A DNA stretch of 32,000 nt from Pirellula staleyi DSM 6068 (GCA_000025185.1 CP001848.1:4170001-4202000); one strand, 5' to 3'. Positions 1 to 27,984 are shown, numbered from the stretch's first letter. The notes: a model not told the origin generated them from the letters alone. Made by a program: numbers and translations.

Positions 1-191
1 GTGAATTTGACAACGATCATCGAGGGCCTGTGAACCTGGATCTCGATGTGACCGGTGCGCGTCGATTGGTGATTCTGCTCGAGCCGCTGGGGCCCGACTT
101 GCGAGCGCAGTTGCTCCTCTGTCAGCCCCGCTTATCCCGCTAAAACCGACCGCCACGCCCGTCGACCCGATGAGGCCAGAAGGCAAGCACG

Positions 192-2042
192 ATGAAGATG
201 ATTTTTTCCACCGCGAAACAGCTGATCGCCGCACTCTTCGTCGCGCTTTTGCAACTGAGTGACGCCGCGATCGCGCTGGCGCAAGAGGCGACGGAAGATA
301 CTGTCGCCAAATCGGCCACGCTGGTTCCCGCTGCTGTTCTTGAAGCGGAGAACAAACGGATCTTGGCGATCGAGCGTGGTGTCCGCTCGACGATCTCGGT
401 CTTCTCCGCCGATGGCAATGGTGGTGGCTCGGGGGTGATGGTTTCGGCCGATGGCTATGCCCTCACCAACTTCCACGTGGTGCAGCCTTGCGGCAACTTT
501 ATGAAATGCAGCTTGCCCGACGGCAATCTCTACGATGCCGTGGTGGTGGGGATCGATCCGACTGGCGATGTGGCGCTCATCAAGCTGCTGGGACGCGATG
601 ACTTCCCACCCGCCACGCTGGCCGATAGCGACAAAGTCCGCGCCGGTGATTGGTGCTTTGCGGTGGGCAATCCATTCCTGCTGGCGACCGATTTTCAGCC
701 GACCGTGTCGTATGGCATCGTGTCGGGAGTGCATCGCTATCAATACCCGGCCGGCACTTTGCTCGAATACGCCGACTGCATTCAAACCGATGCCGCGATC
801 AATCCGGGTAACTCCGGAGGGCCTTTGTTTAATAGCAGCGGCGAACTGATTGGTGTGAATGGACGTGGCTCGTTCGAAAAACGGGGCCGGGTGAATGTCG
901 GGGTGGGCTATGCCATCTCGATCAACCAGATCAAGCATTTCATGGGCTGTTTGCGAAGCGGACGGATCGTCGACCACGCGACAGCGGGCTTCAGTGTTGC
1001 CACCGCTGCTGAAGGGGGCGTGCTCGTTTCGAACATCCTCGAATCGAGCGATGCCTATAAGCGGGGCCTCCGCTACGACGACGAAATCATCGCCTTCGGC
1101 GGCCGCTCGGTGAATTCGGCCAACGCTTTCAAAAACATCCTCGGGATCTTTCCTAAAGGGTGGAAGGTTCCGCTCACCTATCGCAACGAGGCAGGCACCC
1201 ACGACATCGTGGTGCGACTCACCGGCGTGCATGGGGAAGAAGAACTGATCGGACTCGTGCAAAAGCAGGTCGAGGCAGAAGGCCCCAAGCCCATGCCCCG
1301 CCCGATGCCTATGCCCATGCCCGGTGAAGAAAAGCCAGGCGCAGAGAAACCGGAAGAGAAAAAAGCAGCGCCAGCCCCTGCCACCAAACCGGGCGTGCCT
1401 CCGGTGAGCGACGAGCTGAAAAAATGGTTCGTCGGTCGACTCGGCTATGCCAACTATCACTTCAATAAGCTCGAGCTCGATCGCGTTTGGTCGTCGGCCA
1501 CCCAAGACTGCAATCTTGCCGAGGCAACAGGCACCTGGAAGATCGCCGGGACGATCGAAGGCAAAGGTGATTTTCTTTGCGAGCTCTCGAGTACCAAGGC
1601 TTCGATGACCCTAGCCGGGACCACAATTGAGCTTGATCTCGCGAAAGATCTCGACGAGCAAAAAGGTCCAGTAGGGACCGGCGGCTTACTAGTCTCGCTC
1701 TATTTGTGGCGGATGATGCTGGTCGAAGGTCCGGCCAAGTATGGCGAGGTCAGTTACTACGGAACGGCTCCCGATCCTGGTTTTCTCGCGGAAAATGCCG
1801 TGATGTACGATGTATTGTCGGCTGTTCGCAATGTGGTGGAATCGCAACTGCAGTTTTCGCCGAGCGATGGCCGTTTGGCGATTGTCGAATCGCTGGTCGA
1901 CCCCGATGCCGATCCTTGTCGCCTCGTGATGAGCGACTACAAAGCGGCCGGGCCGATGCAGCTTCCCCATCGTTTGTCGATCTCGACCGGCGGTGTGCTG
2001 TATGGCGATTTGGTGATCAGCAGTTTTGAAGTCAGCAAGTAA
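192..2042 (+). CDS. Secreted HtrA/DegP-like S1C serine protease with PDZ-like domain (catalytic triad intact)
   Basis: 616-aa ORF with an N-terminal signal peptide (MKMIFSTAKQLIAALFVALLQLSDAAIALAQE). Trypsin-fold motifs carry an intact triad: TNFHVV (His codon 474-476), GDVALIKL (Asp codon 567-569), INPGNSGGPLF (Ser codon 813-815). A PDZ-like segment follows (GVLVSNILESSDAYKRGLRYDDEIIAFGG). A Pro/Met/Lys-rich linker lies at about 1276-1400, then about 215 aa at the C-terminus that I cannot assign. Confidence 0.85.
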   Translation: MKMIFSTAKQLIAALFVALLQLSDAAIALAQEATEDTVAKSATLVPAAVLEAENKRILAIERGVRSTISVFSADGNGGGSGVMVSADGYALTNFHVVQPCGNFMKCSLPDGNLYDAVVVGIDPTGDVALIKLLGRDDFPPATLADSDKVRAGDWCFAVGNPFLLATDFQPTVSYGIVSGVHRYQYPAGTLLEYADCIQTDAAINPGNSGGPLFNSSGELIGVNGRGSFEKRGRVNVGVGYAISINQIKHFMGCLRSGRIVDHATAGFSVATAAEGGVLVSNILESSDAYKRGLRYDDEIIAFGGRSVNSANAFKNILGIFPKGWKVPLTYRNEAGTHDIVVRLTGVHGEEELIGLVQKQVEAEGPKPMPRPMPMPMPGEEKPGAEKPEEKKAAPAPATKPGVPPVSDELKKWFVGRLGYANYHFNKLELDRVWSSATQDCNLAEATGTWKIAGTIEGKGDFLCELSSTKASMTLAGTTIELDLAKDLDEQKGPVGTGGLLVSLYLWRMMLVEGPAKYGEVSYYGTAPDPGFLAENAVMYDVLSAVRNVVESQLQFSPSDGRLAIVESLVDPDADPCRLVMSDYKAAGPMQLPHRLSISTGGVLYGDLVISSFEVSK

Positions 2043-2100
2043 TGTCGGTCAGCATGATGTGTTGGGTGAGCGATCTGTCTGGTGCAAGAGGGCTGCTGGT

Positions 2101-3123
2101 ATGCGTGAATCCGTGAATCTGCTCGGGCTACTGGTCGCAGGCCTGCTTGTTGCCGCTGCTCTGCTCCCCACGAATCTGGCTGCCCAGTCGCTTCCCGAGG
2201 TGATTACGTCGGTCGAGCCGAAGATGGTGAAAATCTACGGCGCGGGGGGACTCGCGCGGCTCGAAGCGTATCAAAGTGGTTTCCTCATCAGTGGCGAAGG
2301 GCACATCCTGACTGTCTGGAGCTACGTGCTCGATAGCGATGTGATTACCACCGTACTGTCCGATGGCCGGCGACTCGATGCACAGCTCGTCGGCATGGAC
2401 CCGAAACTCGAAATCGCGGTGCTGAAGATCGACGCCACCGAGCTTCCCCATTTCGTGCTCGATGAAGCTGCTTCGCTCACTTCGGGAGATCGGGTCCTCG
2501 CATTTTCCAACTTGTATGGCGTGGCGGCTGGCGATGAGCCTTCGAGCGTTTTACATGGCTCGGTTTCGGCCCTGGCGCCACTTTCGGCCCGGCGCGGTGT
2601 TGCTGCGGCGGCCTATCGGGGACCGGTTTACGTCCTCGATGCGATGACGAATAACCCGGGCGCTGGTGGTGGCGCACTCACCGATCGAAGTGGGCGGATC
2701 GCGGGGATCCTCGGCAAAGAGATGAAGAGCTCGCTCAGCAGCACTTGGATCAACTACGCCATTCCGACGAGTGAACTGACGGAGAGTGTCCTCGATTTGA
2801 TGGCGGGGCGAGCGCGGCCTGTAGTGCGCGATGAAGGGGCCCCAAAGCCGAAAGAGCCGCACACACTGGCAGCGCTGGGAGTGAGCCTGGTCCCTGATTT
2901 TCTCGATAAAACGCCCCCTTTTGTCGAGGCGGTGAAGCTCGGCTCTCCGGCGGCCAAGGCAGGCGTTCGTCCCGATGATCTGGTGCTGTTTATCAACGGC
3001 ACTCTGGTGAGCAGCTGCAAACTGCTGACCGAAGAGGTGAGCTACATCGATCGCCTCGACATGGTGGTGCTGACGCTGCAGCGCGGCGACGAGCTGCTGG
3101 AAGTGACACTCACCAGCGAGTGA
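2101..3123 (+). CDS. HtrA-like trypsin-fold/PDZ protein, predicted catalytically inactive (pseudoprotease)
   Basis: The track ORF begins at a TTG (2026) that overlaps the upstream gene. The ATG at 2101 gives a clean signal peptide (MRESVNLLGLLVAGLLVAAALLPTNLAAQS). The protein aligns by eye to the upstream protease, but the triad positions read TVWSYV (His->Ser), LEIAVLKI (Asp->Glu) and NPGAGGGAL (Ser->Gly, codon 2665-2667). C-terminal PDZ segment: GSPAAKAGVRPDDLVLFINGT. Confidence 0.8.
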   Translation: MRESVNLLGLLVAGLLVAAALLPTNLAAQSLPEVITSVEPKMVKIYGAGGLARLEAYQSGFLISGEGHILTVWSYVLDSDVITTVLSDGRRLDAQLVGMDPKLEIAVLKIDATELPHFVLDEAASLTSGDRVLAFSNLYGVAAGDEPSSVLHGSVSALAPLSARRGVAAAAYRGPVYVLDAMTNNPGAGGGALTDRSGRIAGILGKEMKSSLSSTWINYAIPTSELTESVLDLMAGRARPVVRDEGAPKPKEPHTLAALGVSLVPDFLDKTPPFVEAVKLGSPAAKAGVRPDDLVLFINGTLVSSCKLLTEEVSYIDRLDMVVLTLQRGDELLEVTLTSE

Positions 3124-3180
3124 TCACGCGAGAAGTTGGTTGGGGTTTTGAGGTTGGCCGGCACTTTTTCGAGTCTTCTG

Positions 3181-5139
3181 ATGCGATTTGCTTACTCACT
3201 ACTCGTCGCTGCTCTCTCGCTCGTAGCCACTTTCGCGGCCACGGCCCAAGAGGTCGATTTGCTGCGACTCGAAGACGAAGCAGTGCGAGCTGCGGTGAGT
3301 CGCGTAGCTCCGTCGGTCGTGCGCATTGAAACGGTCGGCGGACTCGAGCGCGTCGGTGAAATATTGATTGGAGGTGGCCCCACGACGGGACTCGTCGTGA
3401 GTGAAGAGGGGCATGTCCTTTCGAGCGCGTTTAACTTTGTGCAGCAGCCGTCGGCGATTCTTGTCGTCCTGCCCAGTGGCGCACGCGCTCCAGCCACCAT
3501 CGTCGCGCGCGATCAAAGTCGCATGCTCGTCCTGCTGAAGGTGACCACGAGCGAAAAGCTGATCGTGCCGCAGACCGTGAAACGGAGTGATCTGCGCGTC
3601 GGTCAGTGGACCATCGCGGTCGGTCGCACGTTCGATCAAGCGGAGCCGAGTGTTTCGCTCGGTGTGCTGAGCGCGAAAGATCGGGTCTGGGGGAAAGCGA
3701 TTCAAACCGATGCCAAGATCTCTCCGACCAATTACGGGGGACCTTTGATCGATATTGAAGGTCGTGTCGCTGGCATTCTCGTGCCGCTGTCGCCTCAAGG
3801 GGGTGATAGTGAAGTCGCTGGTGCCGAGTGGTATGACTCGGGGATCGGCTTCGCAGTTCCGCTCGATGAAATGCTGCCCAGACTCGAGGCCATGAAGCAT
3901 GGTAAAGATCAACTCCCTGGCCTCCTCGGGATTGCGATGAAGCAGGGGAGCCCTTACTCGACCCCTCCAGAGATTATCGCCGCACAAGCCGGTTCGCCCG
4001 CTTCGAAGGCGGGGATCAAAAAGGGAGATGTGATTGTCGAAGCTGCTGGGCGACCGATCGTTCGTCAATCGCAGCTGAAGCATGTGCTCGGCGCGATGTA
4101 TGCGGGGGATAAGGTTGAGCTGGTCGTGAAACGTGGCGATGAGCGCGTGCCACTGACGGCGGAACTGGTCGATAAGCTCGAGCCTTATTCGCATCCCTTC
4201 TTGGGACTCTTGCCGCGGCGCGATAACGGCGATGCTCGTGTGGTGCGCTTTGTCTATCCCGATAGCCCGGCCGCGAAGGCGGGGATTGTGGCGGGGGATA
4301 TCCTCGCGAAGATCGGTGGCGTCGATGCCAAACGCACTGCCGCTGAACTTCACGAGCAACTCGCGGCCGTTGATCCCAAGCAAAAGCTGCAGGTAGAAGT
4401 GGTCCGCGGCGGGGCTGCTATGCCAATCGAACTGCAACCTGCGGTTCAGCCCGAAGTGGTGGCGGCTGATGTTCCTCCGGCGGTGGCTGGTGAACTGCCT
4501 GCGATCGACGCGGCTTATCCTGCCGGGCTGATCGATATCAAGCTGGCTGAAGATGCAGCGGTGGCTAAGCTGCTTGTGCCGTCGAGCTATCGCGCGTCGA
4601 TACCGACGGGGCTGCTCGTGTGGGTGGCACCTCCGGGGAAGTTCGATGTCGAGAAGTGGCGTGCGGCGTGGGAGCCTTGGTGCACCGATCATCAACTCAT
4701 CGCCCTGGCGGTGACGAGTAGTGATGCCTCGCGCTGGCAGCCCACCGAAGCGCCACTGATTCGCAAACTGGTCGACGAAGCGCTGCGACAATATCCGGTC
4801 GACGCCACTCGCGTGGTGATCCTTGGCGAGAGCGCCGGCGGAACGATGGCTCTGCTGGTGGCGGGGAGTGAGCGAGATCGCTTTCGCGGGGTCGCTTCGA
4901 TCGATGCTCCGCCGGCGGCTCGGTCGGCTGTGCCGCAGCCTGACGTGGTGAATCGTTTGGCGGTGCTCTTGGTGGCGTCGAAAGAATCCCCCTCGGAGAA
5001 ACTGATGGTCGCGGCAGCGGCCAAGTATCGTGCCGCTTCGATGCCAGTGACCTTGGTGGAGGTGGAAGCGGGGAAGGGGACGAGCGACGAGACCCGGGCG
5101 AGCATCGTCCGCTGGATCGATACGCTCGACCGTCTCTAG
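3181..5139 (+). CDS. HtrA-like trypsin-fold protein with two PDZ domains and a C-terminal alpha/beta-hydrolase-like domain; protease triad absent
   Basis: The track ORF starts at a TTG (3136). The ATG at 3181 gives the signal peptide MRFAYSLLVAALSLVATFAATAQE. The trypsin-fold core is present (IQTDAKISPTNYGGPLIDIEGRVAGILV), but the triad positions read SAFNFV (no His), RMLVLLKV (Asp->Met) and TNYGG (Ser->Tyr, codon 3733-3735). Two PDZ segments: GSPASKAGIKKGDVIVEAAG and DSPAAKAGIVAGDILAKIGG. The C-terminal domain has a GESAG nucleophile elbow (Ser codon 4831-4833). Confidence 0.8.
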   Translation: MRFAYSLLVAALSLVATFAATAQEVDLLRLEDEAVRAAVSRVAPSVVRIETVGGLERVGEILIGGGPTTGLVVSEEGHVLSSAFNFVQQPSAILVVLPSGARAPATIVARDQSRMLVLLKVTTSEKLIVPQTVKRSDLRVGQWTIAVGRTFDQAEPSVSLGVLSAKDRVWGKAIQTDAKISPTNYGGPLIDIEGRVAGILVPLSPQGGDSEVAGAEWYDSGIGFAVPLDEMLPRLEAMKHGKDQLPGLLGIAMKQGSPYSTPPEIIAAQAGSPASKAGIKKGDVIVEAAGRPIVRQSQLKHVLGAMYAGDKVELVVKRGDERVPLTAELVDKLEPYSHPFLGLLPRRDNGDARVVRFVYPDSPAAKAGIVAGDILAKIGGVDAKRTAAELHEQLAAVDPKQKLQVEVVRGGAAMPIELQPAVQPEVVAADVPPAVAGELPAIDAAYPAGLIDIKLAEDAAVAKLLVPSSYRASIPTGLLVWVAPPGKFDVEKWRAAWEPWCTDHQLIALAVTSSDASRWQPTEAPLIRKLVDEALRQYPVDATRVVILGESAGGTMALLVAGSERDRFRGVASIDAPPAARSAVPQPDVVNRLAVLLVASKESPSEKLMVAAAAKYRAASMPVTLVEVEAGKGTSDETRASIVRWIDTLDRL

Positions 5140-5496
5140 GACGCTGAACTGCTCGACAGCAGCGCAGCAGTAGCCCCCACAGCAGCGCGCCATTTCCAAT
5201 GACAGCAGCGCGCCAAATCTGCCCCCAAGGGGCGCGCGTGATGTTGCGCTTCTTGCGCTTTGGCGCGCGTATCTTGCCCTCCGGCGCGTCCTCGAATCGC
5301 CTTCCAGCAGCAGCCAATCTCCTCCGCTGCTAGCGGCCCTCTTGGCGGTAGTTTGGGCAGTCTGATGTGTGCTTGGGTCGACTGCGGGCTCTCTGAAGAT
5401 TGCGTGAAGTTTGACGCTTTTACCAATTGAACTCGATTTAACGGCCGTACTGGTCGATTCGTTTATTCGGGTCTTCACACATGGGGGGAATTTACC

Positions 5497-6690
5497 ATGC
5501 AATCGAAGTCGATCATTTGGGCTGCCTTGTTGGCGGCTTCTGCGTTTGTTTCTGTCGCTACCGCTCAGTATCCGATGCCGATGTCGGCCGGACCGATGCC
5601 AATGGGCCCAATGCCCGGCATGATGCAAGCCTCGTACATGCAGCCGATGCCGGGTGCTGCACCGATGGCTCCGCCGATGATGCCAGGGGGAATGCCTTGC
5701 ACCACGGCCGCTCCTGGTTGCGGTGATATTGCTGGTGCTGGTGCCTGTGGTGGCAACTGCGGCGATGGCTGTGGTTGTGCCGATGGCTGGACCGACAAGT
5801 GGACTGTCTTCGGCGAGTTCCTCTACGTTCGTCCTCGCGACGCCGAAGTCGCCTACGCTCAGGTCATCAACAGCAACGTTGGTGCCCTGCCTGTCGCACC
5901 GCTGGGCATCGTGGATCCCGAATTCAGCCCTGGTGTTCGCGTGGGACTCAACCGGTTCATGGACGAATGCTCGGCGATTCGCATCAGCTATGCCATGCTC
6001 GATTCGAACACCGAAAGCCAGATGACCTCGAACGCTCCGCTGGCACTTCGCTCGCTGGTGTTCCATCCTGGCACGGCCAACGCCGCTTCGGATGGCGATG
6101 AAGCCACCGCCGCCCTCGACGTCCGCTATCAGCTCATCGACGTCGACTATCGTGGCCTGATCGCTTACGACAACGAGTACAAACTCAACTATGTCGTGGG
6201 TGCTCGCTACGGTCGCCTCGAACAAGATTTCAATCACACCCTGGTGATTCCAGGTACCGAACAACTCGACACCACCGTCGATTTCGATGGTGCTGGTCTC
6301 AAGGTGGGTCTCGAATTCGAACGCTACGGACGCAATCGTCAGTGGTTCGTGTTTGGCAAGGCCAACGCCAGCATGCTGGGTGGCGACTTCCAAGCTCGTT
6401 ACACCCAAACCTCGCTCCCTGGTCCTGCTACCACGCCGGTGGATGTTAGCTGGGAAGCTGGTCGCCTTGTCACGATTACGGAACTCGAAGTCGGTCTCGG
6501 CTGGCAGAATTACTGCGGCAATTTCCGCGTCTCGGCTGGCTACACCGTCTCGTCGTGGTTCAACACGCTCAAGACCAACGAATGGATCTCGGCTGTGCAG
6601 AACGACAACTACGTCGACCCAGCCGACACCACGCTCGATGGCATGATGACCTTCGATGGTCTGACCGCCAAAGCCGAACTCCTCTGGTAA
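5497..6690 (+). CDS. Putative outer-membrane beta-barrel protein (Legionella MOMP / Lpg1974-like) with low-complexity N-terminal extension
   Basis: 397-aa ORF with a GGGGGAA Shine-Dalgarno-like motif about 8 nt upstream. Signal peptide MQSKSIIWAALLAASAFVSVATAQ. A 43-aa Pro/Met-rich tract (5569-5697) is followed by a 27-aa Cys/Gly-rich tract with 6 Cys (5698-5778). The remainder shows alternating amphipathic strand-like patterns (FRVSAGYTVSSWFN, LKVGLEFERYG), the entry motif WTVFGEFLYVRPRDAEVAYA that I recall from the Legionella-OMP family, and a C-terminal aromatic residue (AELLW). The family assignment is from memory, not a search. Confidence 0.6.
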   Translation: MQSKSIIWAALLAASAFVSVATAQYPMPMSAGPMPMGPMPGMMQASYMQPMPGAAPMAPPMMPGGMPCTTAAPGCGDIAGAGACGGNCGDGCGCADGWTDKWTVFGEFLYVRPRDAEVAYAQVINSNVGALPVAPLGIVDPEFSPGVRVGLNRFMDECSAIRISYAMLDSNTESQMTSNAPLALRSLVFHPGTANAASDGDEATAALDVRYQLIDVDYRGLIAYDNEYKLNYVVGARYGRLEQDFNHTLVIPGTEQLDTTVDFDGAGLKVGLEFERYGRNRQWFVFGKANASMLGGDFQARYTQTSLPGPATTPVDVSWEAGRLVTITELEVGLGWQNYCGNFRVSAGYTVSSWFNTLKTNEWISAVQNDNYVDPADTTLDGMMTFDGLTAKAELLW

Positions 6691-6790
6691 CAAGAGCCAG
6701 TTCGCTCGACGATCGGACAAGACCCCAGGCGGTCTGCCACCATTCGAAGAGAAGTCAGCAGACTGCTGCGTGAAGCAAAAAAACCCAAGG

Positions 6791-6823
6791 CCAGGCCTCG
6801 ATTGTTCGAGGTCTGGCTTTTTT
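6791..6823 (+). terminator. Rho-independent terminator downstream of the OMP gene
   Basis: 10-bp stem CCAGGCCTCG (6791-6800) / CGAGGTCTGG (6807-6816) with one G-U pair, loop ATTGTT, then CTTTTTT (6817-6823). An A-tract precedes the stem. Confidence 0.8.
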
Positions 6824-7228
6824 CGTGCGCTAGCGACAACTCACTCACAGGCTCTGTGGCTTCCTGTAGCCAAGCTGTAAGGGACGCTTCTCGTCCCGCA
6901 ATACGCCAGCCATCTCATCGGGTATCAGCGATTCGGCGATCCGCTGTACACATCACCCTTAGACTGGGGGAAAGAAGTTTCTGTGAATTTCCTGGATTTG
7001 CTTGCGGCGAAGGTTTGGAATGCTTACAAGATTTATGGGTTTTAGCGGTCGTAGCGACTTGACCGGTTATTCCGCCAACAGCTACGATCCTCCCCATATT
7101 GCCTGCTTTGCGCCATCCCTACATCGTTTGGCATTCATCTCTAGATTTTCATCGCCGTCATTTGCACCACTTCGTTTCAGTCAGCTAGCGGCTGATCGGC
7201 GGAGTGGGGCACGCCAAGGAGTTCAGCT

Positions 7229-10200
7229 GTGAAGCGTCGTCTCAACCCCCGTCGGCAAGATCTTCAAGCCCAGCAGCGAGCCTCCTTCCTAGGACTAGGA
7301 CGAGCCACTCGTCCGCGCGTCACTCGCCGTGGCCTGTTCGAAATGCTCGAACGTCGCGAAGTGATGGATGCCACCTACCACGACCTGTCAGCCAGTAACT
7401 TCTCGCAAGACTGGACCAACACCGGACTAATTACTACCAACGATAACTGGGGCGGTGTACCAAGTATCGAAGGTTACCTTGGGCAAAATATCACGACCGC
7501 TTCTAACGGCGCTGATCCTCAGGGGCTTTTGACTGTAAGCGCGGTTGCAAATGATCTCGATGTGATCGCAAATCAAACCAATACAACAATTAATAACGGC
7601 GGCATTGCTGAATTTGAACTCGCCGGCAATCCAACGATTGCTTTTCAAGGTTCAGGCACCGCAGACGCTCCATATATCATCGTTTATTTGAACACTACTG
7701 GGCGCGAGAACATCACTTTCTCGTACAACGCCCGCGACATTGACAGCACTCCAACAACTCCACCCTCTGAAGAAGATGCGATTCAGAAGGTCGCTGTTCA
7801 GTATCGTGTTGGTAACACTGGGGATTTCACAAATCTACCGACGGCATACATTCCCGATGCGACAGCTTCTCCAGGCGCGACTCTTATCACGCCGGTAAGT
7901 GTTGTGTTACCAGCAGCAGCAAACAATGTTGCTCAACTACAAATTCGTGTGATCACTTCCAACGCTCAAGGCAGTGATGAGTGGGTAGGGATTGATGACA
8001 TTCTCGTAACTAGCACAGCTGCTGGCGGTGGCGGTAACGCCGCGCCGGTTCTGGCCGATGGCAACTTTGTCGTCACCACGATCGACGAAGATGTGACCGA
8101 TGCAGCCAACACCGGCATGACCGTGACGGCGCTGATCGCTTCGGCCGGTGATCCGATTACCGACACCGATGCCGGAGCACTCGAAGGGATTGCGGTGACG
8201 GCGGTCGACAACACCAACGGCAGCTGGCAATACAGCCTCACCGGTGTGGCACCTTGGACGGCGTTTGGCACACCGACCGCTGCGGCAGCTCGGCTGCTTC
8301 CGGCCGACGGCACCGCGCGTGTGCGATTTGTGCCGAATGCCAACTTCAACGGGGTGATTAACACGGGGCTGACGTTCCGCGCGTGGGATCGCACGACCGG
8401 CACCAGCGGCGGCACTGCCGACACGCAAACGGCTGGCGGCACCACCGCCTTTAGCACCGCCACCGATGCGGCCGCGCTCACCGTGACGTCGGTGAACGAT
8501 GCCCCGACCATCACCCCCATTGCCAATCAGAATACCGCCAGCGGTGTTGCTGTCGGACCGATCGCCTTCACCATCACCGACGTTGATAACGATGTCGCCA
8601 CGTTCGTGAGCCCCACGAACATCTCTGGCTCGTCAGACAACACGACAGTGGTTCCCAATGCCAACATCGTGTTTGGTGGCAGCGGTGCCAGCCGCACGGT
8701 CACCGTCACCCCAGCGGCAGGGCAATCGGGAACGGCAGTCATCACCGTCACGATCAACGACGGTGGCGTGGGTGGCACGGTTACCGAAACGTTCGACATG
8801 GTGGTTGCAGCTCCAGTGCTCAACACACCTGTCGTCACACTGCTAGGGGCAAACGCCACCTTCACCGAAGATGGTGCGGCTGCGGTTGTCGATGCCTTTC
8901 TCACCGTCACCGATGCCGATTCGACCAACCTCACCGGCGCCACGATCACCATCACTAACTTGCTCGATGGTGCAGCTGAATCTCTTGCTCCTAACGTGGG
9001 CAGCACCCCGATTATCGGCAGCTACCTCAATGGTGTCCTCACCCTGAGCGGCACGGCGACCGTTGCACAATACCAGCAAGTCCTGCGTACGATCACCTAC
9101 AGCAACACTTCGCAGAATCCAAGCACTACGCCCCGATCGATCAGCTTCGTGGTGACCGACGGCACCAACAGCAGCGCCGTGGTGAACAAGTCGGTGAATG
9201 TAGTCTCGGTGAACGATAACCCCACGAGCGTCACCCAACTTCCACCGCAAACCATTCAGGTGGGACAGACCGTTAACTTCGTGCTGAACGTCACCGATCC
9301 GGATGACAGTTTGTTTGAACTGTTTGTTATTTCGAACACGAATTTTACCGCAGCTCAGGCAGACTTTGTCAGCTCTGGCTTAGTCGCTTCACCAGAGTTC
9401 AGTGTGACCGGTGTGGCACCTGGCGTTGCAACCATCACTTACCAGGTTCGCGATGACGAATCCGGAACTGGATTGGCCTCGTTCGGCTCATTTGAGGTTA
9501 CCGTCGTTCCCGCTGCAGCAGCCGAGACCGAAGTTGCGGTCTCTGGCAATCAGCTTGTCATTTCCGACATTGGCAACGCCTCGGACGACAACCTCACACT
9601 TTCGATCGATTCCAGCGTTAACCCTCCCGTCTTTGTAATCGCTGATCCAACCAACACCCTCACCACCACGATTGCTGGCGCGACAGGTAACGGAACTAAC
9701 GAACTCCGAATTCCGCTCACCTCGCCTGACCTGGCAACTGTCACAGGTTTGCGAGTTGACACAGGCGCTGGCAACGATACCCTCGCCCTCGACTTCAGCA
9801 ATGGTGCTTTTGCCCTTCTGGGAAATGGTTACTCGGTCGATTTCGTCGGCGGCACCGGGAGCGACGAACTGCAACTCCTCGGCGGCGTTTGGGACACCAA
9901 CCAGTACGACTACGATATTGCCACCGGCCCAACCGATGGCTTTGCAGGCACCATCACGCTGACCGATGTGCTGGTCTCTTCGCTCACGGTGAACTTCGAA
10001 GGCCTCGAGCCGATCCTCAACACCGGCACGGTGACTGATGTCATCTTCAACCTCCCTGCGGTGGCGAATGGTGTCTTCCTCGAAGACAACGGCATAGCCG
10101 CCGATAACATCAGCCGACTCCGCAGCGATGGCACGTTCGAACTCACCGACTTTACGAACCCCACCGGTTCACTCACGGTGAACATGACCGGAGCCTTTTC

Positions 10201-13200
10201 CGACACGGTAATTCTCTCGGGCTTCGACGTTGCCTCGGCTATACCTGTCGTGAACGTCAACACCTCCGATGGCGACGATACTGTTTCGGTCCTCGCAACC
10301 GCTGCTGCCACCGACACAAACATTAGCACCGGCAATGGTATCTCCGACCTGGTGGTGATCGGTCGTGTGTCGTCGGCTGCTGCAGGAACTGGCTCGCTAG
10401 CGAATATCCTCGGCGACATCAACACGCTAGATCCCAATAACATGGATCTGACTGTCGACAACGGTGCCGACGCATCCAATCGCGATTGGCTCATCAGCTC
10501 GCCAGGTGTAGCTCAGGGCCGGATTGCGACCACAGGATTAGGCTTGATCTCGTACGACACAGGTTCCACGAACACGCTCAGCCTTCAAACTGGAACCGGC
10601 AGCGATGAGTTTACGTTCGATTTCACCGGTGGCAATCCCACCGATCCGCTCCCCTTTGCTGGCTTTAATATTAGCGCTGGTGCCGGTGCAGGTAGCGACT
10701 CGATAGTGCTCCAAGGTAGCCCAACGTTCGGCACCGTTACGCATAGCTTTACCAACGACAACGATGGCAACATCGCCATCGAAGGTGCTGACATCAACTA
10801 CATCGGCCTCGAGCCGATTATCGACAACCTCGATGTCAACAACCGCATCTTCAACTTCGCTCAAGAGGTGGATCCTGTTAGCCTGACCCGAGTGAGCGGA
10901 ACTCTCACCCGCATCGAATCGACGGTCAACGAGCAAGTCGACTTCACCACGCCGAACACGTCGCTCACGATTAACGGTTCGGTGACTGCCGGCGCCTTCG
11001 TGCTGCAAGTGCTCGATCTCGCTGACGACTACAACACGGCCACCAACACCATCAACCCCAATTCGACCGGCTTTAGCTCTACCACCTTCGAGACGACGGG
11101 CGACGCCGCCAGCAACTGGATCGTCAACGGTGCCAACAACTTCCAAAATGTGGTCACGGTGAGCCCAGCAGCTGGGACACTCGACAACATCCAGGGTTCG
11201 ATCACCTTCTTCGGTGGCACCGGAAACGCCGACGTTCTCTTCGTGCTCGACTACTCAGACACCGACGACAACACCTACACGCTCGATTCACCTGTACCAG
11301 GCAGCTTTACGATCGACCGCGTCGGTGCAGGTCTCATCACGCACGACTTGGCGGTGGAAGTTGTTCAGCTCGATGCTGGCCGAGGTAACGATACCATCAA
11401 CGTGAACGCCACCAGTGGCGAGGCCTTTACCGAAGTCGAAGGTGGACTTGGCGATGACAGCTTCGGCGTCAACGCTAGCCGACTCGGTGAGGGTGGAACT
11501 GATGGAACCGTCGAACTCATCGGGAACGATGATGACGACACGTTCGACATCTTCATCACCACCCTTGCTGGCATCTCCGCCCCGCTGTCGATCGATGGTG
11601 GAGCCAATAACTTTGCTGTCGATGGCAGCCGCGACACGGTGAATGTTAACGATGTCGTTGGGCTTGGTGCTCTGGTTGCCACCGCCACCTATGGTGCTGG
11701 TTCCGACTTCACCCTCAGCGGTGCGTTGCTGGTGAATGATCTGAACGTCACCCAGGCCGAAACGATCCGCTACTTTGGTGGCGGTGGCGGTGACCAAATC
11801 ACCGTGGTTGGCACCGGTGCCTCCGACGACCTGATCACCGCTGTGCCTCTCAACTCCTTTACAACCCTGGTGTTCAACAACTCACCAGCGGACGCGAGTG
11901 GTCCGTTCAACGGCCCGCCTGAAGATTTCACCACACGCATTCCCGGCGTTTCCGGCGGAAGCGTTCGTCCTGATCTCTACCTCACCGGTTTGGATTCGAC
12001 CACCGGCCTGACCATCTCCGATCCAGGTCCAGGAACTGGCGATCGACTTTACGTTTACGGCCAAAGCGAAGTCGAAGTCAACGACACACTTGCCTTCGAT
12101 CCGTTTGGTTTCGGCGCAGGGGTGATCGTTCCTGCGGTTACTGTTGGCACTGCCTACGACACGATTGTGGTCGACGACACTTCGGTGTCGGTGAACAACT
12201 TTGTTGTCGTCAACTACAACAACACCGACTTCGTGCAGGCTGATCCACTCACCGAAGCTTCGGTGGTTGTGAACAGCGGTTTCGAAGGGAACGTGGTTGG
12301 CACTGCCGACGATATTGCGGTCACCCTGAGCCCGAACTATCGCTTCACCATCAACGGTGGCGATCCCGACCCAGTCACCACGGGTATTGTTCCCCCGAAT
12401 GGCGATCGGTTGTCGATTACCAACACAGCGGATGTCGTGAATATTTGGTCGACGAAAGATCCACTCGGGATCGACCTGCCGATCATCACGATCGATTACG
12501 TTGGCAGTGGACTCGTTCCAATCAGCTTTAGCTCGATCGAAGACTTCGGCACGATCAACGCCACGACAGTGAACCTGATTGGCGACAACAACGATGCTGG
12601 AATCGATCAGAACGATGACTTCCGAGTCTTCGGCGCCGACACCGATGGCGATCCAACCGATGGGGGCTATCAAGAGTTCGTTCTCTTCATCAACAACTCA
12701 CCGACAGCCTTGTCATTCAACAACGTGAAGTTTTTGAATGTGTTTGGCTTCGATCAAGTGAGTGGCGGTCTCGACAACCCTGTGGCTGGCGACGACAGCA
12801 ACATTGATACGCTCGAACTCACACCTTATGCCGACAACTCAGGCACAAACGGCAACAATGCTCCGACAGGCTGGGGCATCGATGTCTTCTTCAATGAAGG
12901 CGAGCCCAACGGCACCGATGGCGCGCAAGATTTGATCATCTACCACACGTCGCTCGGATTTGGTGGCGGCGGAAGTGTGTCGGAAGATATCGTCGTGGTT
13001 CCTTCGGGTCCCGACAACGGTGAAATCCGCGTCACCAATGCTGTCGATGGCAGTTTGATCGTGGTGATTCAGTACGTCGCCAACACCGACTTGATCTTCC
13101 AAGACGATGATGGCTCGCTCACCGATAGCGACACTCTCACGCTGCTGGGCACCGTTCCAGTTACCGCTCAAACTAGCGGTGATGACGATTTCGAAATCGA

Positions 13201-16200
13201 CATGCAAGCTGCCGGCGACGTGGCGAATCCTTGGATTACCGTCACCGACGCCGATTCCAACTTGATCCTCTATCGCGTGCGAAACTTTGTCGGCTTCCCG
13301 ACTATCAGCATCGATACCTTGGCTGGTGACGATGCCGTACTTGTCAATAACAACGCCACCCAGCGGATCGAAGTGTCGCTGGGTGAAGGCGACGACTTAT
13401 TCAATGGCGACTTGAACGGCACTGGCACTTCACTCTCGCTGAATGCACCCGTTTATGGTGGTAGTGGCAACGACATACTGCTGGGTACAAGCGAGGCAGA
13501 TGTTCTTCATGGCGAGGGTGGTTTCGATTCGATCAACGGCGGCGATGGCGCCGACACGCTCTATGGTGGCGACGATATCGACACCTTCAGCGTGATAGCT
13601 GGCGAAGGACTCGACTTCATCTCGGGTGGCAGCGGTTCGACGGACCAAGTGGTTTACAATTCCAGTGTTGCCGAAGTCGCTTCACTTCGCAGCATCTCGG
13701 GTACCGGCGTGGTACTGACGGTCGGTGGCAACCAAGTCTTCGGTGCCAGCGACATCGAGTCGGTTCGATTGGTTTACTCCGGGCAAATAACGCTGACACT
13801 CGAGGACCTCGAGCAGTCGTCGGTGGTCGATGTACAAGTTCGACTTAACTCCGCTGCTGTCGACAGCTTGACAGTCAATGGCTCCCAAGTCTCCGATCAA
13901 ATCTCGGTGGTGCCAGGTGCCGACGGACTGTTTGTCGATGGTCTCCCTTACGATCTGAACATCAGCACCGCTCAGCCAACCGATACGCTGACGATCCTCG
14001 GCCTCGGTGGCAACGACAACCTCATCGCTACCGAAGCTGCGGCAGCACTAATGACCCTCACCTTCGATGGTGGTGCTGGCGATGACTACCTCAGCGCCAA
14101 TGCCACGCTGATTGGTGGCGACGGCAACGACACGCTGATTGGCGGCAGTGGCAATAACATCCTCATCGGTGGAGCAGGCAACGATCTGATCCGCGGCGGA
14201 GCCGGGGACGACACCATCGACGGTGGCGACGGCGACGACACGATCGTGGGTGGCACAGGTGCCGACACCATCGATGGCGGTGCCGATTTCGATACGATCT
14301 TGGTCGAAGGAACTTCGGCGAACGATCGCATTAGTGTGCAGCAAGATACGCCAACGCAGATTCAGTACGAAGTGAGCAATCAGTTCACGCCGGGTGTCGA
14401 TGGTGTGATTGGTGGCGTCGGAACCGAAGTCGATATCCTCAGCAGTGGCTCGGTCGAAGAGATCAAGGTGCTGGCTGGTGCGGGAGACGATCAGATTCTC
14501 GTCCGTCAGGCCGATGGCTTGATCTCCACAAACAGCCAAGCTCTGTCGCTTCGCGTGACGGTTGATGGTGGCTCGCCAGGAGCCAGCGATCGTCTGACGA
14601 TTGTCGACGATGGAGCGGGAGATACGGTCATCCATCGCATTAGTGCTACGCCAGGTTCGGGCTCGTACACGATCGGCGCACTGGCACCGATTTTCTACGA
14701 CGGCATCGAATACACGAGCATGTCGCAGATCGATCCGATCACAGGCGGCACTGGCACCGATGGTCTTGGAAATGGTCGTCTGTATGTCTTCAAGGCAGAC
14801 ACCTACGAGCAGAACAACACGCTCCCGAACGCGACATTCCTCGGTTCGGGGGCTTCGATCAACATCGATCCTGTGATCGATCCAGGTCCTGATGCCGTGT
14901 TTGGCGTGGGTGGCGATGAAGATTGGTATCGACTGGTGGCCGAACAAACGGGCACACTCGATATCCGTGTCTTCTTCCGCTTGCAGCCAACCCTTGCCAA
15001 CGGTCGCCTCGGATTGCCCGGCAACGGCAACCTTGATATTGCGGTCTACGATCTCGATGGCACCGACATCACCAGCACGTTCCGCGTGGTGGGTGCTGCC
15101 GGCGACGAACGAGTTCGCATTCCAGCGGTCGAAGGTCAAACCTATTACTTGCGAGTTCGTGCAAGCACTGCCAACCCCGATGCTGTCAACGTTTACAACA
15201 TCAACGTTGTGAACGATGCTCCGCCCGTGGCTTACGGTCTTGAACTAAACGACCTCGTTGCCTCGGGAACGATTGTCAACTCGATCAGCGCCGTGAGCTT
15301 TATCGGACCTGCGAGCTTGTCGACAGTCGACGACTTCTACAACGGTAAGTGGGTCTACATCACAGCCGGTGCTCGCGCTGGCGAACGTGCTCTCGTCACG
15401 GACTATGTGGGTGCCACTCGCACCTTCACCCTGGCTGCTGGCACAAGTGGACTCACCGGTGCACCAGGGCTCGTGACGTTCCAGGTCGAAAGCTTCGATA
15501 CGGGACGCTCGCAGCTTGATAACCTGACGCGCGACACCACGCCCACGATTGTCTTCCGCCTCGACGACGGCATCTTCCTGAACGATGTTCAAGGCAATGG
15601 CGTGGCCGGAAATCCACCGGTGGGAGCCGTTGCGATTCCGTTCCGCACAGGTCCAGTGGTCGCTGGTCAAGCTGGCTACGCGATTGCGATCTTCGATGAA
15701 GGTGCAAGCCCCAACGGCAGCGGCACGGCTCCTCAGACGCCGATTGGCTACGCCACGCAGATCAGCCCCGGTTTGTATGAGTTCACTCCGACGGTGGCAC
15801 TGGCAGAAGGTTCGCACTTCTTATCGGCCCGCGTTGAAATGCGTGGCAGCGATACGCCGCAACAAATTGCCTACGGTGATCGCAGCAGCTTGCTCGAAAT
15901 CGTAGTCGACTCGACCGCACCACTGGTTGATTTCGGTCTCTACAACGTGCTCGGCGATGGTCTGGTGGCCGATAGCGATAGTGGTGTGATTGGCGATCAA
16001 ACCACCAGCGACACCACCCCATCGTTCTTCGGTCGCGCTGAATCCGATGCGATTGTTCGGCTGTATGTCGACAGTAACGGCAACGGTGTGTTCGATAACA
16101 CTGATCTTCAGATCGGTCAGACGGTGGCTCAGCCATTCGACGGCACCAATCAGTTCCCGAATGGTCAGTGGGAAATCACGTCGCTCTACGACCTCAACAA

Positions 16201-20645: not shown

Positions 20646-21297
20646 ATCCCCGGCCTCGGACGGTTTGAATCAGCGGCTCAGAGAAGCCGCGATCAATCTT
20701 ACCGCGAAGTCGATTGATGTGCACTTCGACAACGTTAGTGACCCCTTCCCAGTCCGATTCCCACAGGTGCTCACAGAGCATTTTGCGAGTGACAACCTGC
20801 CCGGCGTAGCGCATCAAAAACTCGAGCAGGCTGAACTCCGTGGGAGTCAGGCTCAGTTCGCTATCGTTGCGCGTTACTTTGCGATTGGTGAGATCGAGTA
20901 CCAGAGGACCCACCTTCAGCTGCGAACTGGGGCGATCTTTTGTGCGGCGACTGATGGCATCTAGCCGAGCCAAAAGCTCGGGGAAAGCAAACGGTTTGAC
21001 GAGGTAATCATCGGCCCCGCTGTTGAGCCCCGCGACCCGGTCGTCGACTGAACCAAGTGCTGTGAGCATCAAAACCGGGGTGCCGATTCCGTCGTGCCGA
21101 ATCTTGCGAACCACCTCCATGCCGGTTGTATCGGGCAGCATGACATCGAGCACCAGCGCATCAAACTGCTGGGTTGAGGCTTGTTCGAGCCCCGATTTCC
21201 CAGTCCGTTCCCACTGACAAAAGTGTCCCGCTTCGGAGAGGCCGCGCTCCAGTGCTTTCCCAAGCACGGGGTCATCCTCGATGACTAACAGTTTCAC
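20626..21297 (-). CDS. OmpR/PhoB-family response regulator (CusR/CopR-like subfamily by eye)
   Basis: Receiver domain MKLLVIEDD...ALVLDVMLPD...LTALGSVDDRVAGLNSGADDYLVKPFAFPELLARL. Winged-helix domain LTPTEFSLLEFLMRYAGQVVTRKML...VEVHINRLRGKIDRGFSEPLIQTVRGRGYVL. It is close to my recollection of E. coli CusR, but no metal link is demonstrable here. Confidence 0.9.
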   Translation of the reverse strand: MKLLVIEDDPVLGKALERGLSEAGHFCQWERTGKSGLEQASTQQFDALVLDVMLPDTTGMEVVRKIRHDGIGTPVLMLTALGSVDDRVAGLNSGADDYLVKPFAFPELLARLDAISRRTKDRPSSQLKVGPLVLDLTNRKVTRNDSELSLTPTEFSLLEFLMRYAGQVVTRKMLCEHLWESDWEGVTNVVEVHINRLRGKIDRGFSEPLIQTVRGRGYVLRTT

Positions 21298-24474: not shown

Positions 24475-24516
24475 GCGCGGCCCAACGAAGTGCTACGGAA
24501 GACCGACTCGAATCAA

Positions 24517-25347: not shown

Positions 25348-25609
25348 GGTGATGTTCTCGGCAAGCGTGGGAGTGATAGCAAGCGAATGATTAAAGCACG
25401 CCAGGAGCCCACGGCAAGGGGGAAGCATCGGCTGAAAAAGTGATAGCGGAGTAATGATGGCAAAAAAGTGTCAGAAATTGGTAGCAAACTGCCAAACTGA
25501 CTTTGCACAAAGTGCGGGGGATCAGTAACTTTGCCGCAGCCGGAGAGTGGCGAATAACGTTCACTACCTCAGGTTTTGAAGCCGAGACTTCTTTGTGCGA
25601 GAACTTCCG

Positions 25610-27876: not shown

Positions 27877-27984
27877 CGGCAAAGCTCGAAGGCTGATAGG
27901 GGCGGGGGATAGGGGGCGGGAGTTGGCTGACCCCAAAGGGGCATCAACTAAACCCTATGTTACACGAGCGCCACGATGTGTTAC

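What the first reader, a model, noticed from the sequence alone, without database searches (positions are those of the whole stretch)
192..5139. Tandem triplet of HtrA-like genes: one catalytically intact, two with every triad residue replaced
Three consecutive same-strand genes (192-2042, 2101-3123, 3181-5139; spacers 58 and 57 nt) each have their own signal peptide. They share a trypsin-fold + PDZ layout and align by eye across the catalytic core. Gene 1 keeps His/Asp/Ser (TNFHVV, GDVALIKL, GNSGGPLF). At the aligned positions gene 2 reads TVWSYV, LEIAVLKI, GAGGGAL (His->Ser, Asp->Glu, Ser->Gly). Gene 3 reads SAFNFV, RMLVLLKV, TNYGGPL (no His, Asp->Met, Ser->Tyr). The surrounding fold motifs (QTDA-x-I, GGPL/GGAL, the G-I-L-G strand) and the PDZ segments are retained, so the fold looks conserved while catalysis is lost. 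HtrA/DegP proteases are built from trimers, which is established knowledge. Three apparently co-transcribed paralogues in a 1 active : 2 inactive ratio suggest an obligate hetero-oligomeric periplasmic protease/chaperone, with the pseudoprotease subunits providing substrate capture or gating. I am not aware of such a heteromeric HtrA module having been described.
Basis: partly seen in the sequence, partly recalled or inferred. Interest (0 to 1): 0.7.

Follow-up and report, generated by a model that had tools for sequence, protein, structure and literature searches.

The report
One live, two dead HtrA proteases
Three neighbouring genes for secreted HtrA-type proteases, one with an intact active site and two that have lost it, are kept together in hundreds of planctomycete species at the end of a long MoxR/Bat-type envelope operon, so the two dead copies have a selected non-catalytic job that nobody has yet tested.

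Summary
Genes at 192-2042, 2101-3123 and 3181-5139 all match the HtrA/DegP layout of a trypsin fold plus PDZ. HMM alignments to solved DegP/DegQ/MucD structures place His95/Asp126/Ser208 in gene 1. The same columns read Ser74/Glu104/Gly189 in gene 2 and Asn85/Met115/Tyr185 in gene 3.

The order g1-g2-g3 is kept in every related locus whose flanks allow a check (73 of 80 loci; at least 396 species carry g2). The dead triads are conserved, including an invariant Ser in g2 and an invariant aromatic residue in g3. dN/dS is 0.065, 0.065 and 0.089, so the dead copies are as constrained as the live one.

- The trio is the 3' end of an operon of at least 11 genes (MoxR, DUF58, BatA, five unknown envelope proteins, then the trio), which the window edge cuts.
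- Gene 1 carries a C-terminal LolA/LolB-like domain.
- Gene 3 carries a second dead enzyme domain, an alpha/beta hydrolase.

The obligate 1:1:1 heterotrimer could not be tested. Precedents exist: Deg5-Deg8, MamE/MamO and DEG7. My verdict is a new variant of a known kind, of moderately high interest.

The parts
3..143 (+). 3' end of upstream operon gene 'E' (about 420 aa, secreted, NPCBM-like C-terminus), cut by the window edge
   Evidence: The frame-3 translation ...LLLCQPRLSR* matches the C-terminus of E in L081. E precedes g1 in 67 related loci. E is called as a 421-aa NPCBM gene just upstream of g1 in L106.
192..2042 (+). g1: catalytically intact HtrA/DegP-family protease, 616 aa. Layout: signal peptide, protease domain, PDZ, Pro-rich linker, LolA-like domain.
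   Evidence: H95, D126 and S208 are invariant in all orthologues covered.
414..941 (+). g1 protease domain (residues about 75-250). Triad codons: H95 at 474-476, D126 at 567-569, S208 at 813-815.
   Evidence: Trypsin_2 covers 79-222. The alignment to DegP 2zle runs TNFHVV/TNNHVV, GDVALI/SDIALI, GNSGGP/GNSGG.
984..1232 (+). g1 PDZ domain (residues about 265-347)
   Evidence: PDZ and PDZ_2 hit at E 3e-4 and 6e-4, below the gathering score. The region aligns to DegP PDZ1. PF13180 is detected in many orthologues.
1374..2039 (+). g1 C-terminal domain (residues 395-616), preceded by a Pro-rich linker. The fold is a LolA/LolB/RseB-like half-barrel.
   Evidence: AF2 model: pLDDT 92, pTM 0.87. Foldseek PDB top hits: LolA-superfamily NE2245 (3buu), LolA3 and LolB of P. 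gingivalis, and 3bk5, at E 3e-4 to 6e-4 and TM 0.39-0.47. The domain is present in nearly all orthologues.
2101..3123 (+). g2: HtrA-fold pseudoprotease plus one PDZ, 340 aa. Triad columns: S74 (2320-2322), E104 (2410-2412), G189 (2665-2667).
   Evidence: Over orthologues, Ser is invariant, Glu is near-invariant, and the nucleophile column is Ala, Pro or Gly. Omega is 0.065.
3181..5139 (+). g3: HtrA-fold pseudoprotease plus two PDZ domains plus a dead alpha/beta-hydrolase domain, 652 aa. Triad columns: N85 (3433-3435), M115 (3523-3525), Y185 (3733-3735).
   Evidence: The nucleophile column is Tyr 142 / Phe 9 and never Ser in the 151 aligned sequences (g3 plus 150 cluster representatives). Omega is 0.089.
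4516..5136 (+). g3 C-terminal alpha/beta-hydrolase-fold domain (residues about 446-652). The nucleophile-elbow motif GESAGG has S551 at 4831-4833. There is no His in residues 520-652, read directly from the translation.
   Evidence: Peptidase_S9, esterase and Abhydrolase hits. PHA-depolymerase type 1 hit at E 7.5e-12, below cut-off. AF2 model: pLDDT 94.5. Foldseek hits to esterases and DPP-IV at E 4e-10, TM about 0.66. The nucleophile column is Q, G or E in most orthologues and Ser in 5 of 151, and no His reaches 60% conservation in the domain.

Best explanation
The three genes encode ancient, secreted HtrA/DegP paralogues. They form the terminal protease module of a long envelope operon conserved in Pirellulales: MoxR AAA+ ATPase, DUF58, a BatA-type membrane protein, a vWA/GATase1-like/MG2 membrane protein, four further secreted or membrane proteins of unknown fold, then g1, g2 and g3.

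g1 is the only catalytic subunit. It has the His/Asp/Ser triad, a PDZ domain and a LolA/LolB-like domain that probably binds an acyl or lipid moiety.

g2 (dead protease fold plus PDZ) and g3 (dead protease fold, two PDZ domains and a dead alpha/beta-hydrolase domain) are non-catalytic partners kept by selection. They probably capture substrates or activating peptides through their PDZ domains and dead clefts, and so control or target g1. This would resemble MamO with MamE, or Deg5 with Deg8.

The physical form of the partnership, whether mixed trimer-based HtrA oligomers or adaptor contacts, is inferred and not shown. The substrates are most likely components of the same Bat-like envelope assembly; that is also inferred.

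Shown here: the domain anatomy, the loss of both catalytic centres, the conserved linkage, the purifying selection and the operon context.
For: - Triad columns were fixed by alignment to solved HtrAs.
- g1-g2-g3 keep the same order and strand in 73 of 80 loci. The other 7 are cut by a contig end. At least 396 species hold g2.
- The order is also kept in more distant metagenome loci, where g2 is about 47% identical.
- The g1 triad is invariant. In g2, S74 is invariant and the E104 column is near-invariant. The g3 nucleophile column is always Tyr or Phe.
- NG86 omega is 0.065, 0.065 and 0.089 for g1, g2 and g3.
- At the g1-g2 junction, a start codon lies at a 4-nt or 1-nt overlap in 39 of 74 loci.
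- The operon context MoxR (AAA_3, E 2.6e-62), DUF58, BatA_N, A, B, C, D, E, g1, g2, g3 is seen in L086, L092, L094, L104, L081, L082 and in the window's own genome L106.
- The first 143 nt of the window are the end of gene E.
- g1 has a LolA-like domain. g3 has a dead hydrolase domain.
- Precedents for non-catalytic HtrA partners: PMC4794232, PMC4754418, PMC3194040.
Against: - There is no direct evidence that the three proteins touch each other or any Bat-operon protein.
- Co-transcription is inferred only from spacing and conservation.
- The three paralogues are only 26-27% identical to one another, so retention of a common trimer interface is not evident.
- g1 resembles canonical DegP more than it resembles g2 or g3 and could work as an ordinary homo-oligomer.
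- The LolA-like assignment rests on modest TM-scores (0.39-0.47).
- The Bat/MoxR operon itself has no established function (PMC3557215), so the proposed substrates are guesses.
Confidence: 0.6

Rival explanations
1. One reading: an obligate 1:1:1 heterotrimer, or multiples of it, built through the protease domains. It has one active and two gating or substrate-capturing subunits.
For: The one-copy-each gene order is strictly conserved. Junctions are tight and often overlapping, which suits coupled, near-equimolar translation. The protease-fold region is the best conserved part of g3, at 0.65 mean column conservation against 0.40-0.51 for its other domains. Deg5-Deg8 shows that HtrA hetero-oligomers exist (PMC4754418).
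Against: It was not tested: no multimer modelling or biochemistry was available. Mutual identity is only 26-27%. The sizes and domain loads are very different (616, 340 and 652 aa) and may not pack into one symmetric HtrA trimer. Gene linkage does not give stoichiometry.
Confidence: 0.2
2. The three proteins are functionally separate. g1 is an ordinary homo-oligomeric periplasmic protease. g2 and g3 are stand-alone holdase or scaffold components of the Bat-like envelope complex and do not regulate g1.
For: HtrA folds can act as protease-independent chaperones; this is established for DegP and is my own knowledge. g1 looks like a complete canonical HtrA. The extra domains of g3 suggest binding functions of its own. 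All three co-occur with five other conserved envelope genes, so their partners may be those proteins.
Against: The invariant adjacency of exactly these three paralogues over a divergence in which g2 identity falls to about 47% is more than operon membership alone requires. The MamO precedent shows a dead paralogue acting on the live one (PMC4794232).
Confidence: 0.2
3. g2 and/or g3 are still enzymes that use non-canonical residues, for example the invariant Ser74 with Glu104 in g2.
For: Ser74 is invariant and the Glu104 column is near-invariant in g2. Three or four g2 orthologues have Ser in the nucleophile column. The g3 hydrolase domain keeps Ser in the window.
Against: No orthologue has a complete triad in either family. 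The g2 nucleophile column is Ala, Pro or Gly, and the g3 column is Tyr or Phe. The hydrolase domain has no conserved His, and its elbow residue is Q, G or E in most orthologues.
Confidence: 0.03
4. The module is an anti-phage or conflict system of the MoxR-vWA type with a trypsin-like effector.
For: MoxR-vWA ternary conflict systems with protease effectors have been described (PMC7159879). There is a weak bpMoxR Pfam hit at E 2.9e-10.
Against: The MoxR gene matches classical AAA_3 far better (E 2.6e-62) and sits with DUF58 and BatA_N, which is the housekeeping Bat arrangement. PADLOC gives no system hit beyond generic trypsin similarity. The operon is present once per species across at least 396 species, with strong purifying selection and no sign of patchy, mobile distribution.
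Confidence: 0.03
5. g2 and g3 are decaying duplicates (pseudogenes) evolving neutrally.
For: The only support is the loss of all triad residues.
Against: The reading frames are intact in all loci. Omega is 0.065 and 0.089. Hundreds of 50%-identity clusters are full length. The replacement residues are themselves conserved.
Confidence: 0.01

Closest known systems
MamE / MamO of magnetotactic bacteria (HtrA protease plus HtrA pseudoprotease; PMC4794232)
   Same: An active HtrA and a degenerate-triad HtrA paralogue are encoded in one gene cluster. The dead copy is retained by selection and promotes proteolysis by the live one. The paper also reports repeated origin of such pseudoproteases by duplication.
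   Different: g2 and g3 are not MamO orthologues: NCBIfam MamO scores 32 and 27 bits against a cut-off of 800. They have no TauE domain, and a di-His metal site was not examined. Here there are two different dead paralogues, in a MoxR/Bat operon, in Planctomycetota.
Arabidopsis Deg5-Deg8 heterohexamer (reviewed in PMC4754418)
   Same: It is a documented hetero-oligomeric HtrA complex at about 1:1, in which only one partner (Deg8) is proteolytically active as recombinant protein.
   Different: It has two partners, not three. Deg5 lacks a PDZ domain. The genes are unlinked nuclear genes. As far as I recall, without checking here, Deg5 keeps a canonical triad. Its substrate is photosystem II D1.
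Plant DEG7 / yeast Nma111 (active plus degenerate protease domain in one chain; PMC3194040)
   Same: A duplicated HtrA protease domain lost catalysis and specialised in protein-protein interaction and trimerisation.
   Different: The live and dead domains are fused in one polypeptide and form homotrimers. Here they are separate genes with their own signal peptides.
Bat (Bacteroides aerotolerance) / MoxR-DUF58-vWA operons (PMC3557215, PMC5700661)
   Same: The upstream genes of the same operon are MoxR (AAA_3), DUF58 and a BatA_N-domain membrane protein with vWA and GATase1-like domains.
   Different: Nothing I found or recall describes a Bat operon that ends in HtrA genes. The planctomycete version adds five large unknown proteins and the HtrA trio.
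DegS with RseB (E. coli sigma-E envelope stress pathway)
   Same: An HtrA protease works together with a LolA-fold lipid-sensing protein. RseB and MucB appear among the weaker fold matches of the g1 C-terminal domain.
   Different: In E. coli they are separate proteins, and RseB acts on RseA rather than on DegS. Here the LolA-like domain is fused to the protease. No RseA-like or sigma-factor gene lies in the operon.

Membership tests
HtrA/DegP (MEROPS S1C) proteases | Trypsin-fold protease domain | tested here: met
   Pfam Trypsin_2 scores above the gathering cut-off for g1, g2 and g3 (118.5, 67.9 and 70.9 bits against 27.6). Alignments to DegP, DegQ and MucD structures agree.
HtrA/DegP (MEROPS S1C) proteases | At least one C-terminal PDZ domain | tested here: met
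   g2 and g3 score above the PDZ_2 cut-off. g1 is just below it but aligns to DegP PDZ1, and its orthologues carry PF13180.
HtrA/DegP (MEROPS S1C) proteases | His-Asp-Ser catalytic triad in the canonical columns | tested here: not met
   Met for g1 only (H95, D126, S208). g2 has S, E, G and g3 has N, M, Y, and these are conserved in orthologues. g2 and g3 are therefore HtrA-fold pseudoproteases, not proteases.
HtrA/DegP (MEROPS S1C) proteases | Trimer-based oligomer | not testable with these tools
   Only monomer structure prediction was offered.
NCBIfam equivalogs DegP, DegQ, DegS, MamE, MamO | Whole-protein score at or above the curated cut-off | tested here: not met
   All scores are far below the cut-offs. 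For example, g1 scores 217.6 bits on degP_htrA_DO against 416.2, and g2 and g3 score 32 and 27 bits on MamO against 800.
HtrA pseudoprotease partner of an active paralogue (MamO-like role) | Degenerate triad, retained by selection, encoded next to an active paralogue | tested here: met
HtrA pseudoprotease partner of an active paralogue (MamO-like role) | The dead copy stimulates or targets proteolysis by the live copy | not testable with these tools
   This needs genetics or biochemistry.
Hetero-oligomeric HtrA complex (Deg5-Deg8-like) | Physical mixed oligomer of paralogues | not testable with these tools
   No multimer modelling was available. The only indirect support is linkage and overlapping junctions.
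Bat / MoxR-DUF58-vWA operon | MoxR AAA_3 ATPase, DUF58 and a BatA_N membrane protein in one operon with the genes in question | tested here: met
   L086 carries AAA_3 (E 2.6e-62), DUF58 (E 3.6e-49) and BatA (E 2.4e-13), followed on the same strand by A-E and g1-g2. BatA lies upstream in the window's own genome, L106. These genes lie outside the window.
LolA/LolB/RseB fold superfamily (g1 C-terminal domain) | Unclosed beta-barrel with helical lid, similar to solved LolA or LolB | tested here: inconclusive
Alpha/beta-hydrolase serine esterases and peptidases (g3 C-terminal domain) | Alpha/beta-hydrolase fold | tested here: met
   AF2 pLDDT is 94.5. Foldseek hits esterases and DPP-IV at E 4e-10 and TM about 0.66. 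Pfam Peptidase_S9 scores 26.6 bits against 22.6.
Alpha/beta-hydrolase serine esterases and peptidases (g3 C-terminal domain) | Ser-Asp-His catalytic triad | tested here: not met
   The elbow residue is Q, G or E in most orthologues and Ser in 5 of 151. No His reaches 60% conservation in the domain. The window protein has no His in residues 520-652, by direct reading of the translation.

The most novel reading that the evidence does not exclude
The trio is an obligate hetero-oligomeric HtrA machine. Two dedicated pseudoprotease subunits and a fused LolA-like lipid or lipoprotein sensor gate a single catalytic subunit. This machine would be the maturation or quality-control protease of the MoxR/Bat envelope assembly, which would give the first mechanistic handle on what these widespread, enigmatic Bat operons build.
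Probability: 0.2. Interest if true: 0.8.

Novelty: new variant of a known kind. Interest (0 to 1): 0.6.

Why it matters
HtrA proteases are a model for allosteric, oligomer-based protein quality control. Natural assemblies that mix live and dead subunits are known for ClpP/ClpR, proteasomes and FtsH, but are barely documented for bacterial HtrAs.

Here two different dead paralogues have been kept next to one live paralogue across at least 396 species-level genomes, under selection as strong as on the enzyme itself. That is a clean natural experiment on what a protease fold does without catalysis.

The link to a MoxR-DUF58-BatA operon also matters. Bat operons are widespread in Bacteroidota, Spirochaetota and Planctomycetota, yet have no established molecular function. 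A dedicated protease module with a lipid-binding-type domain suggests concrete experiments, such as substrate trapping with g1 S208A and pull-downs of the operon proteins.

Tried and rejected
- A protein search with the g1 C-terminal domain alone found only one hit, because the word index is too insensitive for this fast-evolving domain. I had to repeat it with full-length g1.
- The first dN/dS script timed out. I rewrote it with my own NG86 code. Several pairs were saturated at synonymous sites (dS infinite) and were left out of the medians.
- PDB sequence searches with upstream proteins A, B and E found nothing. Pfam and NCBIfam gave only weak hints for A-E: ThuA/GATase1-like, MG2, NPCBM and DUF4088.
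- The promoter and terminator scan of 1-7300 found no convincing internal promoter or terminator between the three genes, and nothing above shuffled expectation that bears on the question.
- PADLOC gave no defence-system assignment, so I rejected the conflict-system reading.
- Evolutionary-rate covariation and DCA between g1, g2 and g3 were considered but not run. There are too few paired sequences (about 70), and no control genes outside the operon were available.
- Literature searches found no description of this planctomycete trio or of HtrA genes in Bat operons. Absence from the held library is not proof of absence.

Full report

Yes. The same starts, and the same spacers of 58 and 57 nt, are called independently in a public contig whose g1 is 99% identical (GCA_002483025.1, DLHC01000012.1; locus L106).

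All three match Pfam Trypsin_2 above its cut-off and carry PDZ domains. All three align to NCBIfam degP_htrA_DO, though below its cut-off. phmmer alignments to solved HtrA structures place the catalytic columns without ambiguity:

- g1 has TNF-H95-VV, G-D126-VALI and GN-S208-GGP, against DegP 2zle.
- g2 has Ser74, Glu104 and Gly189 in those columns, against DegQ 4ynn and DegP 3mh4.
- g3 has Asn85, Met115 and Tyr185, against MucD 8k2y.

The His column of g3 is Asn. The QTDA motif is kept in g1 and g3 but not in g2.

**2. Conservation elsewhere**

A search with g2 found 3,949 proteins at E <= 1e-10, and the best 120 are 61-100% identical (82% or less apart from the identical P0001). A scan of one genome per species found 396 stretches encoding a g2 relative. 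The 80 kept come from Pirellulaceae and other Planctomycetota, including Blastopirellula marina DSM 3645, Anatilimnocola sp. NA78, a Rhodopirellula MAG and a Candidatus Anammoximicrobium MAG.

- In all 80 loci the neighbours follow the window. g1-g2-g3 share order and strand in 73 loci, and the other 7 are cut by a contig end.
- Both the C-terminal extension of g1 and that of g3 are covered in the orthologues.
- The g1-g2 junction has an in-frame start at a 4-nt overlap in 31 of 74 loci, and at a 1-nt overlap in 8. This fits co-transcription and translational coupling. It is an inference and was not measured.

**3. The substitutions are themselves conserved**

- g1 orthologues keep His, Asp and Ser without exception where the column is covered.
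- In g2, Ser at the His column is invariant (121 of 121; 81 of 81). Glu at the Asp column is 121 of 121 and 76 of 81. The nucleophile column is Ala, Pro or Gly, with Ser in only 3 and 1 sequences, none of which has the His.
- In g3, the nucleophile column is Tyr in 79 of 79 covered sequences in the locus set.
- Among the 150 best representatives of 50%-identity clusters from 1.84 billion proteins, plus g3 itself, that column is Tyr 142 and Phe 9, never Ser. The His column is Asn in 102 of 151, and the Asp column varies.
- That search counted 785 representatives at E <= 1e-30, and the best 150 are almost all near full length.
- More distant metagenome loci, where g2 is about 47% identical, show the same pattern.

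**4. Selection**

I ran Nei-Gojobori dN/dS on the 20 closest locus pairs. The 15-16 pairs with unsaturated dS give these medians:

| Gene | Median omega | Range |
|---|---|---|
| g1 | 0.065 | 0.033-0.095 |
| g2 | 0.065 | 0.014-0.089 |
| g3 | 0.089 | 0.041-0.136 |

The two dead paralogues are as constrained as the enzyme, so the neutral-decay reading is refuted.

**5. The paralogues are old**

g1, g2 and g3 are only 26-27% identical to one another. g1 scores better against E. coli DegP (E 3e-37) than against g2 or g3. The trio is therefore not a recent tandem duplication.

**6.

*g1.* After the PDZ and a Pro-rich linker, g1 has about 220 residues with no Pfam match. With a 115-sequence alignment, AlphaFold2 gives a confident model, with pLDDT 92 and pTM 0.87. 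The Foldseek PDB top hits are all LolA-superfamily proteins:

- NE2245 (3buu)
- LolA3 and LolB of P. gingivalis
- the lipoprotein-sorting domain 3bk5

*g3.* g3 has two PDZ domains and a C-terminal alpha/beta-hydrolase domain:

- Pfam hits Peptidase_S9, esterase and Abhydrolase families.
- The AF2 model has pLDDT 94.5.
- Foldseek hits esterases, PHB depolymerases and DPP-IV at E 4e-10 and TM about 0.66.

In the window the nucleophile elbow reads GESAGG, but residues 520-652 of the window protein contain no His. In orthologues the elbow residue is mostly Gln, Gly or Glu, with Ser in 5 of 151 aligned sequences, and no His reaches 60% conservation. g3 therefore carries two dead catalytic centres.

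**7.

Clustering all ORFs of the related loci showed conserved same-strand genes directly upstream of g1. Gene calls in Anatilimnocola aggregata (L082), in an 82%-identical relative (L081) and in the window's own genome (L106) give the same layout. BatA-domain protein (774 aa) comes first, then A (about 920 aa), B (about 800 aa), C (about 600-680 aa), D (about 355 aa), E (about 420 aa), g1, g2 and g3.

Metagenome loci reached through protein A extend this further upstream to a MoxR ATPase (Pfam AAA_3, E 2.6e-62), DUF58 (E 3.6e-49) and the BatA_N protein. The full order holds even where A is only 36-46% identical (L092, L104).

What can be said about the upstream proteins:

- A has weak vWA, ThuA/GATase1-like and MG2 hits and a C-terminal membrane helix.
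- B has N-terminal membrane helices.
- C is a secreted coiled-coil protein with PGEQK repeats.
- D and E are secreted.
- E ends in an NPCBM-like domain.
- None of A, B or E has a sequence relative in the PDB.

The first 143 nt of the window encode the last 47 residues of E. The finding is therefore the truncated tail of an operon of at least 11 genes. This is the planctomycete form of the Bat (aerotolerance) MoxR-vWA operon, whose molecular function is not established (PMC3557215, PMC5700661). One A homologue (L098) ends its operon without B-E or HtrA genes, so the extension is not universal.

**8. Mechanism**

*Shown:* one intact and two dead HtrA folds, each with PDZ domains; extra LolA-like and dead-hydrolase domains; strict linkage; strong purifying selection; membership of a MoxR/BatA envelope operon.

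*Inferred:* g1 is the only catalyst. g2 and g3 act as non-catalytic partners that bind substrates or activating C-termini through their PDZ domains and retained clefts, and so control or target g1. Their active-site loops are among the most conserved segments: NYGGPL in g3 and LDAMTNNPGAAGGAL in g2. The likely clients are components of the same envelope assembly, and the LolA-like domain adds lipid or lipoprotein recognition.

In HtrAs, activation passes from loop L3 of one subunit to loops LD, L1 and L2 of the neighbour. This is established for DegS and DegP and is my own knowledge. A mixed oligomer in which dead subunits act as sensors for the live one is therefore mechanistically plausible. 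The near-invariance of the LD-loop region of g1 (GNPFLLATDFQPTV, at least 90% conserved) is compatible with that.

No tool here could test physical association. My confidences are:

- 0.6 for the functional-module reading.
- About 0.2 for the strict 1:1:1 heterotrimer.
- About 0.2 for functionally separate proteins.

**9. Comparison with what is known**

- HtrA pseudoproteases that assist an active paralogue are known. MamO has a degenerate site and promotes MamE-dependent proteolysis, and similar dead copies arose three times by duplication (PMC4794232).
- HtrA hetero-oligomers are known. Deg5-Deg8 form roughly 1:1 heterohexamers, and only recombinant Deg8 is active (PMC4754418).
- A degenerate HtrA domain that mediates trimerisation is known in DEG7 (PMC3194040).

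Several things appear new, as far as the held literature shows:

- a bacterial three-gene set with two different, anciently diverged dead paralogues;
- the second dead enzyme domain;
- the fused LolA-like domain;
- the fixed position at the end of a MoxR/Bat operon across Pirellulales.

g2 and g3 are not members of any curated HtrA equivalog. PADLOC gives no defence-system assignment.

**10. Verdict**

I class this as a new variant of a known kind and score interest at 0.6. It is a well-conserved, experimentally tractable natural case of live and dead HtrA paralogues, and a possible entry point into Bat-operon function. Its central mechanistic claim remains untested.

Noticed in passing
window 3-143 (+): This is the C-terminal 47 codons of the upstream operon gene E (NPCBM-like). 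The window edge cuts a much longer operon, so the finding's true unit starts outside the window.
   Followed up: yes
window 5497-6690 (+): A 397-aa gene matches Pfam Legionella_OMP (PF05150, E 5.6e-24), so it is porin-like. It follows g3 only in the closest relatives (seven of the first fifteen genome loci, between L001 and L015, plus L081 and L106) and is probably not part of the module.
   Followed up: partly
window 7229-18163 (+): A giant 3644-aa ORF. Its relatives carry HemolysinCabind, Big_13, DUF4394 and Dockerin_1 hits. It is a conserved neighbour in L081 and L106.
   Followed up: no
window 3199-6720 (-): A 1173-aa antisense ORF overlaps g3 and the porin gene. It has Arg-rich, low-complexity composition and is most likely an artefact of high G+C rather than a gene.
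   Followed up: no
window 19158-21297 (-): A two-component pair: a HAMP/HisKA/HATPase_c histidine kinase and an OmpR-type response regulator whose ORFs overlap by 20 nt.
   Followed up: no
window 23635-25428 (-): Two tandem PNP_UDP_1 phosphorylase-superfamily paralogues (279 and 303 aa).
   Followed up: no
window 26515-27936 (-): A protein with a planctomycete cytochrome c domain (PSCyt1) fused to a WD40 propeller. This is consistent with a planctomycete origin for the window.
   Followed up: no
L082 3980-5776 and L081 3524-5575 (operon gene C): This secreted coiled-coil protein has a long tract of PGEQK / PSEGK pentapeptide repeats. The number and sequence of repeats differ between species.
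   Followed up: no
L098 1-1137 and downstream: A homologue of operon protein A (44% identical) ends its operon and is followed by an opposite-strand gene. No B-E or HtrA genes lie within 10 kb, so some lineages have the shorter Bat-type operon without the trio.
   Followed up: partly
window 4831-4833 (g3 Ser551): The window's g3 keeps Ser in the alpha/beta-hydrolase nucleophile elbow (GESAGG), whereas most orthologues have Gln, Gly or Glu. Residues 520-652 of the window protein contain no His, so this is probably a relic rather than an active site.
   Followed up: partly
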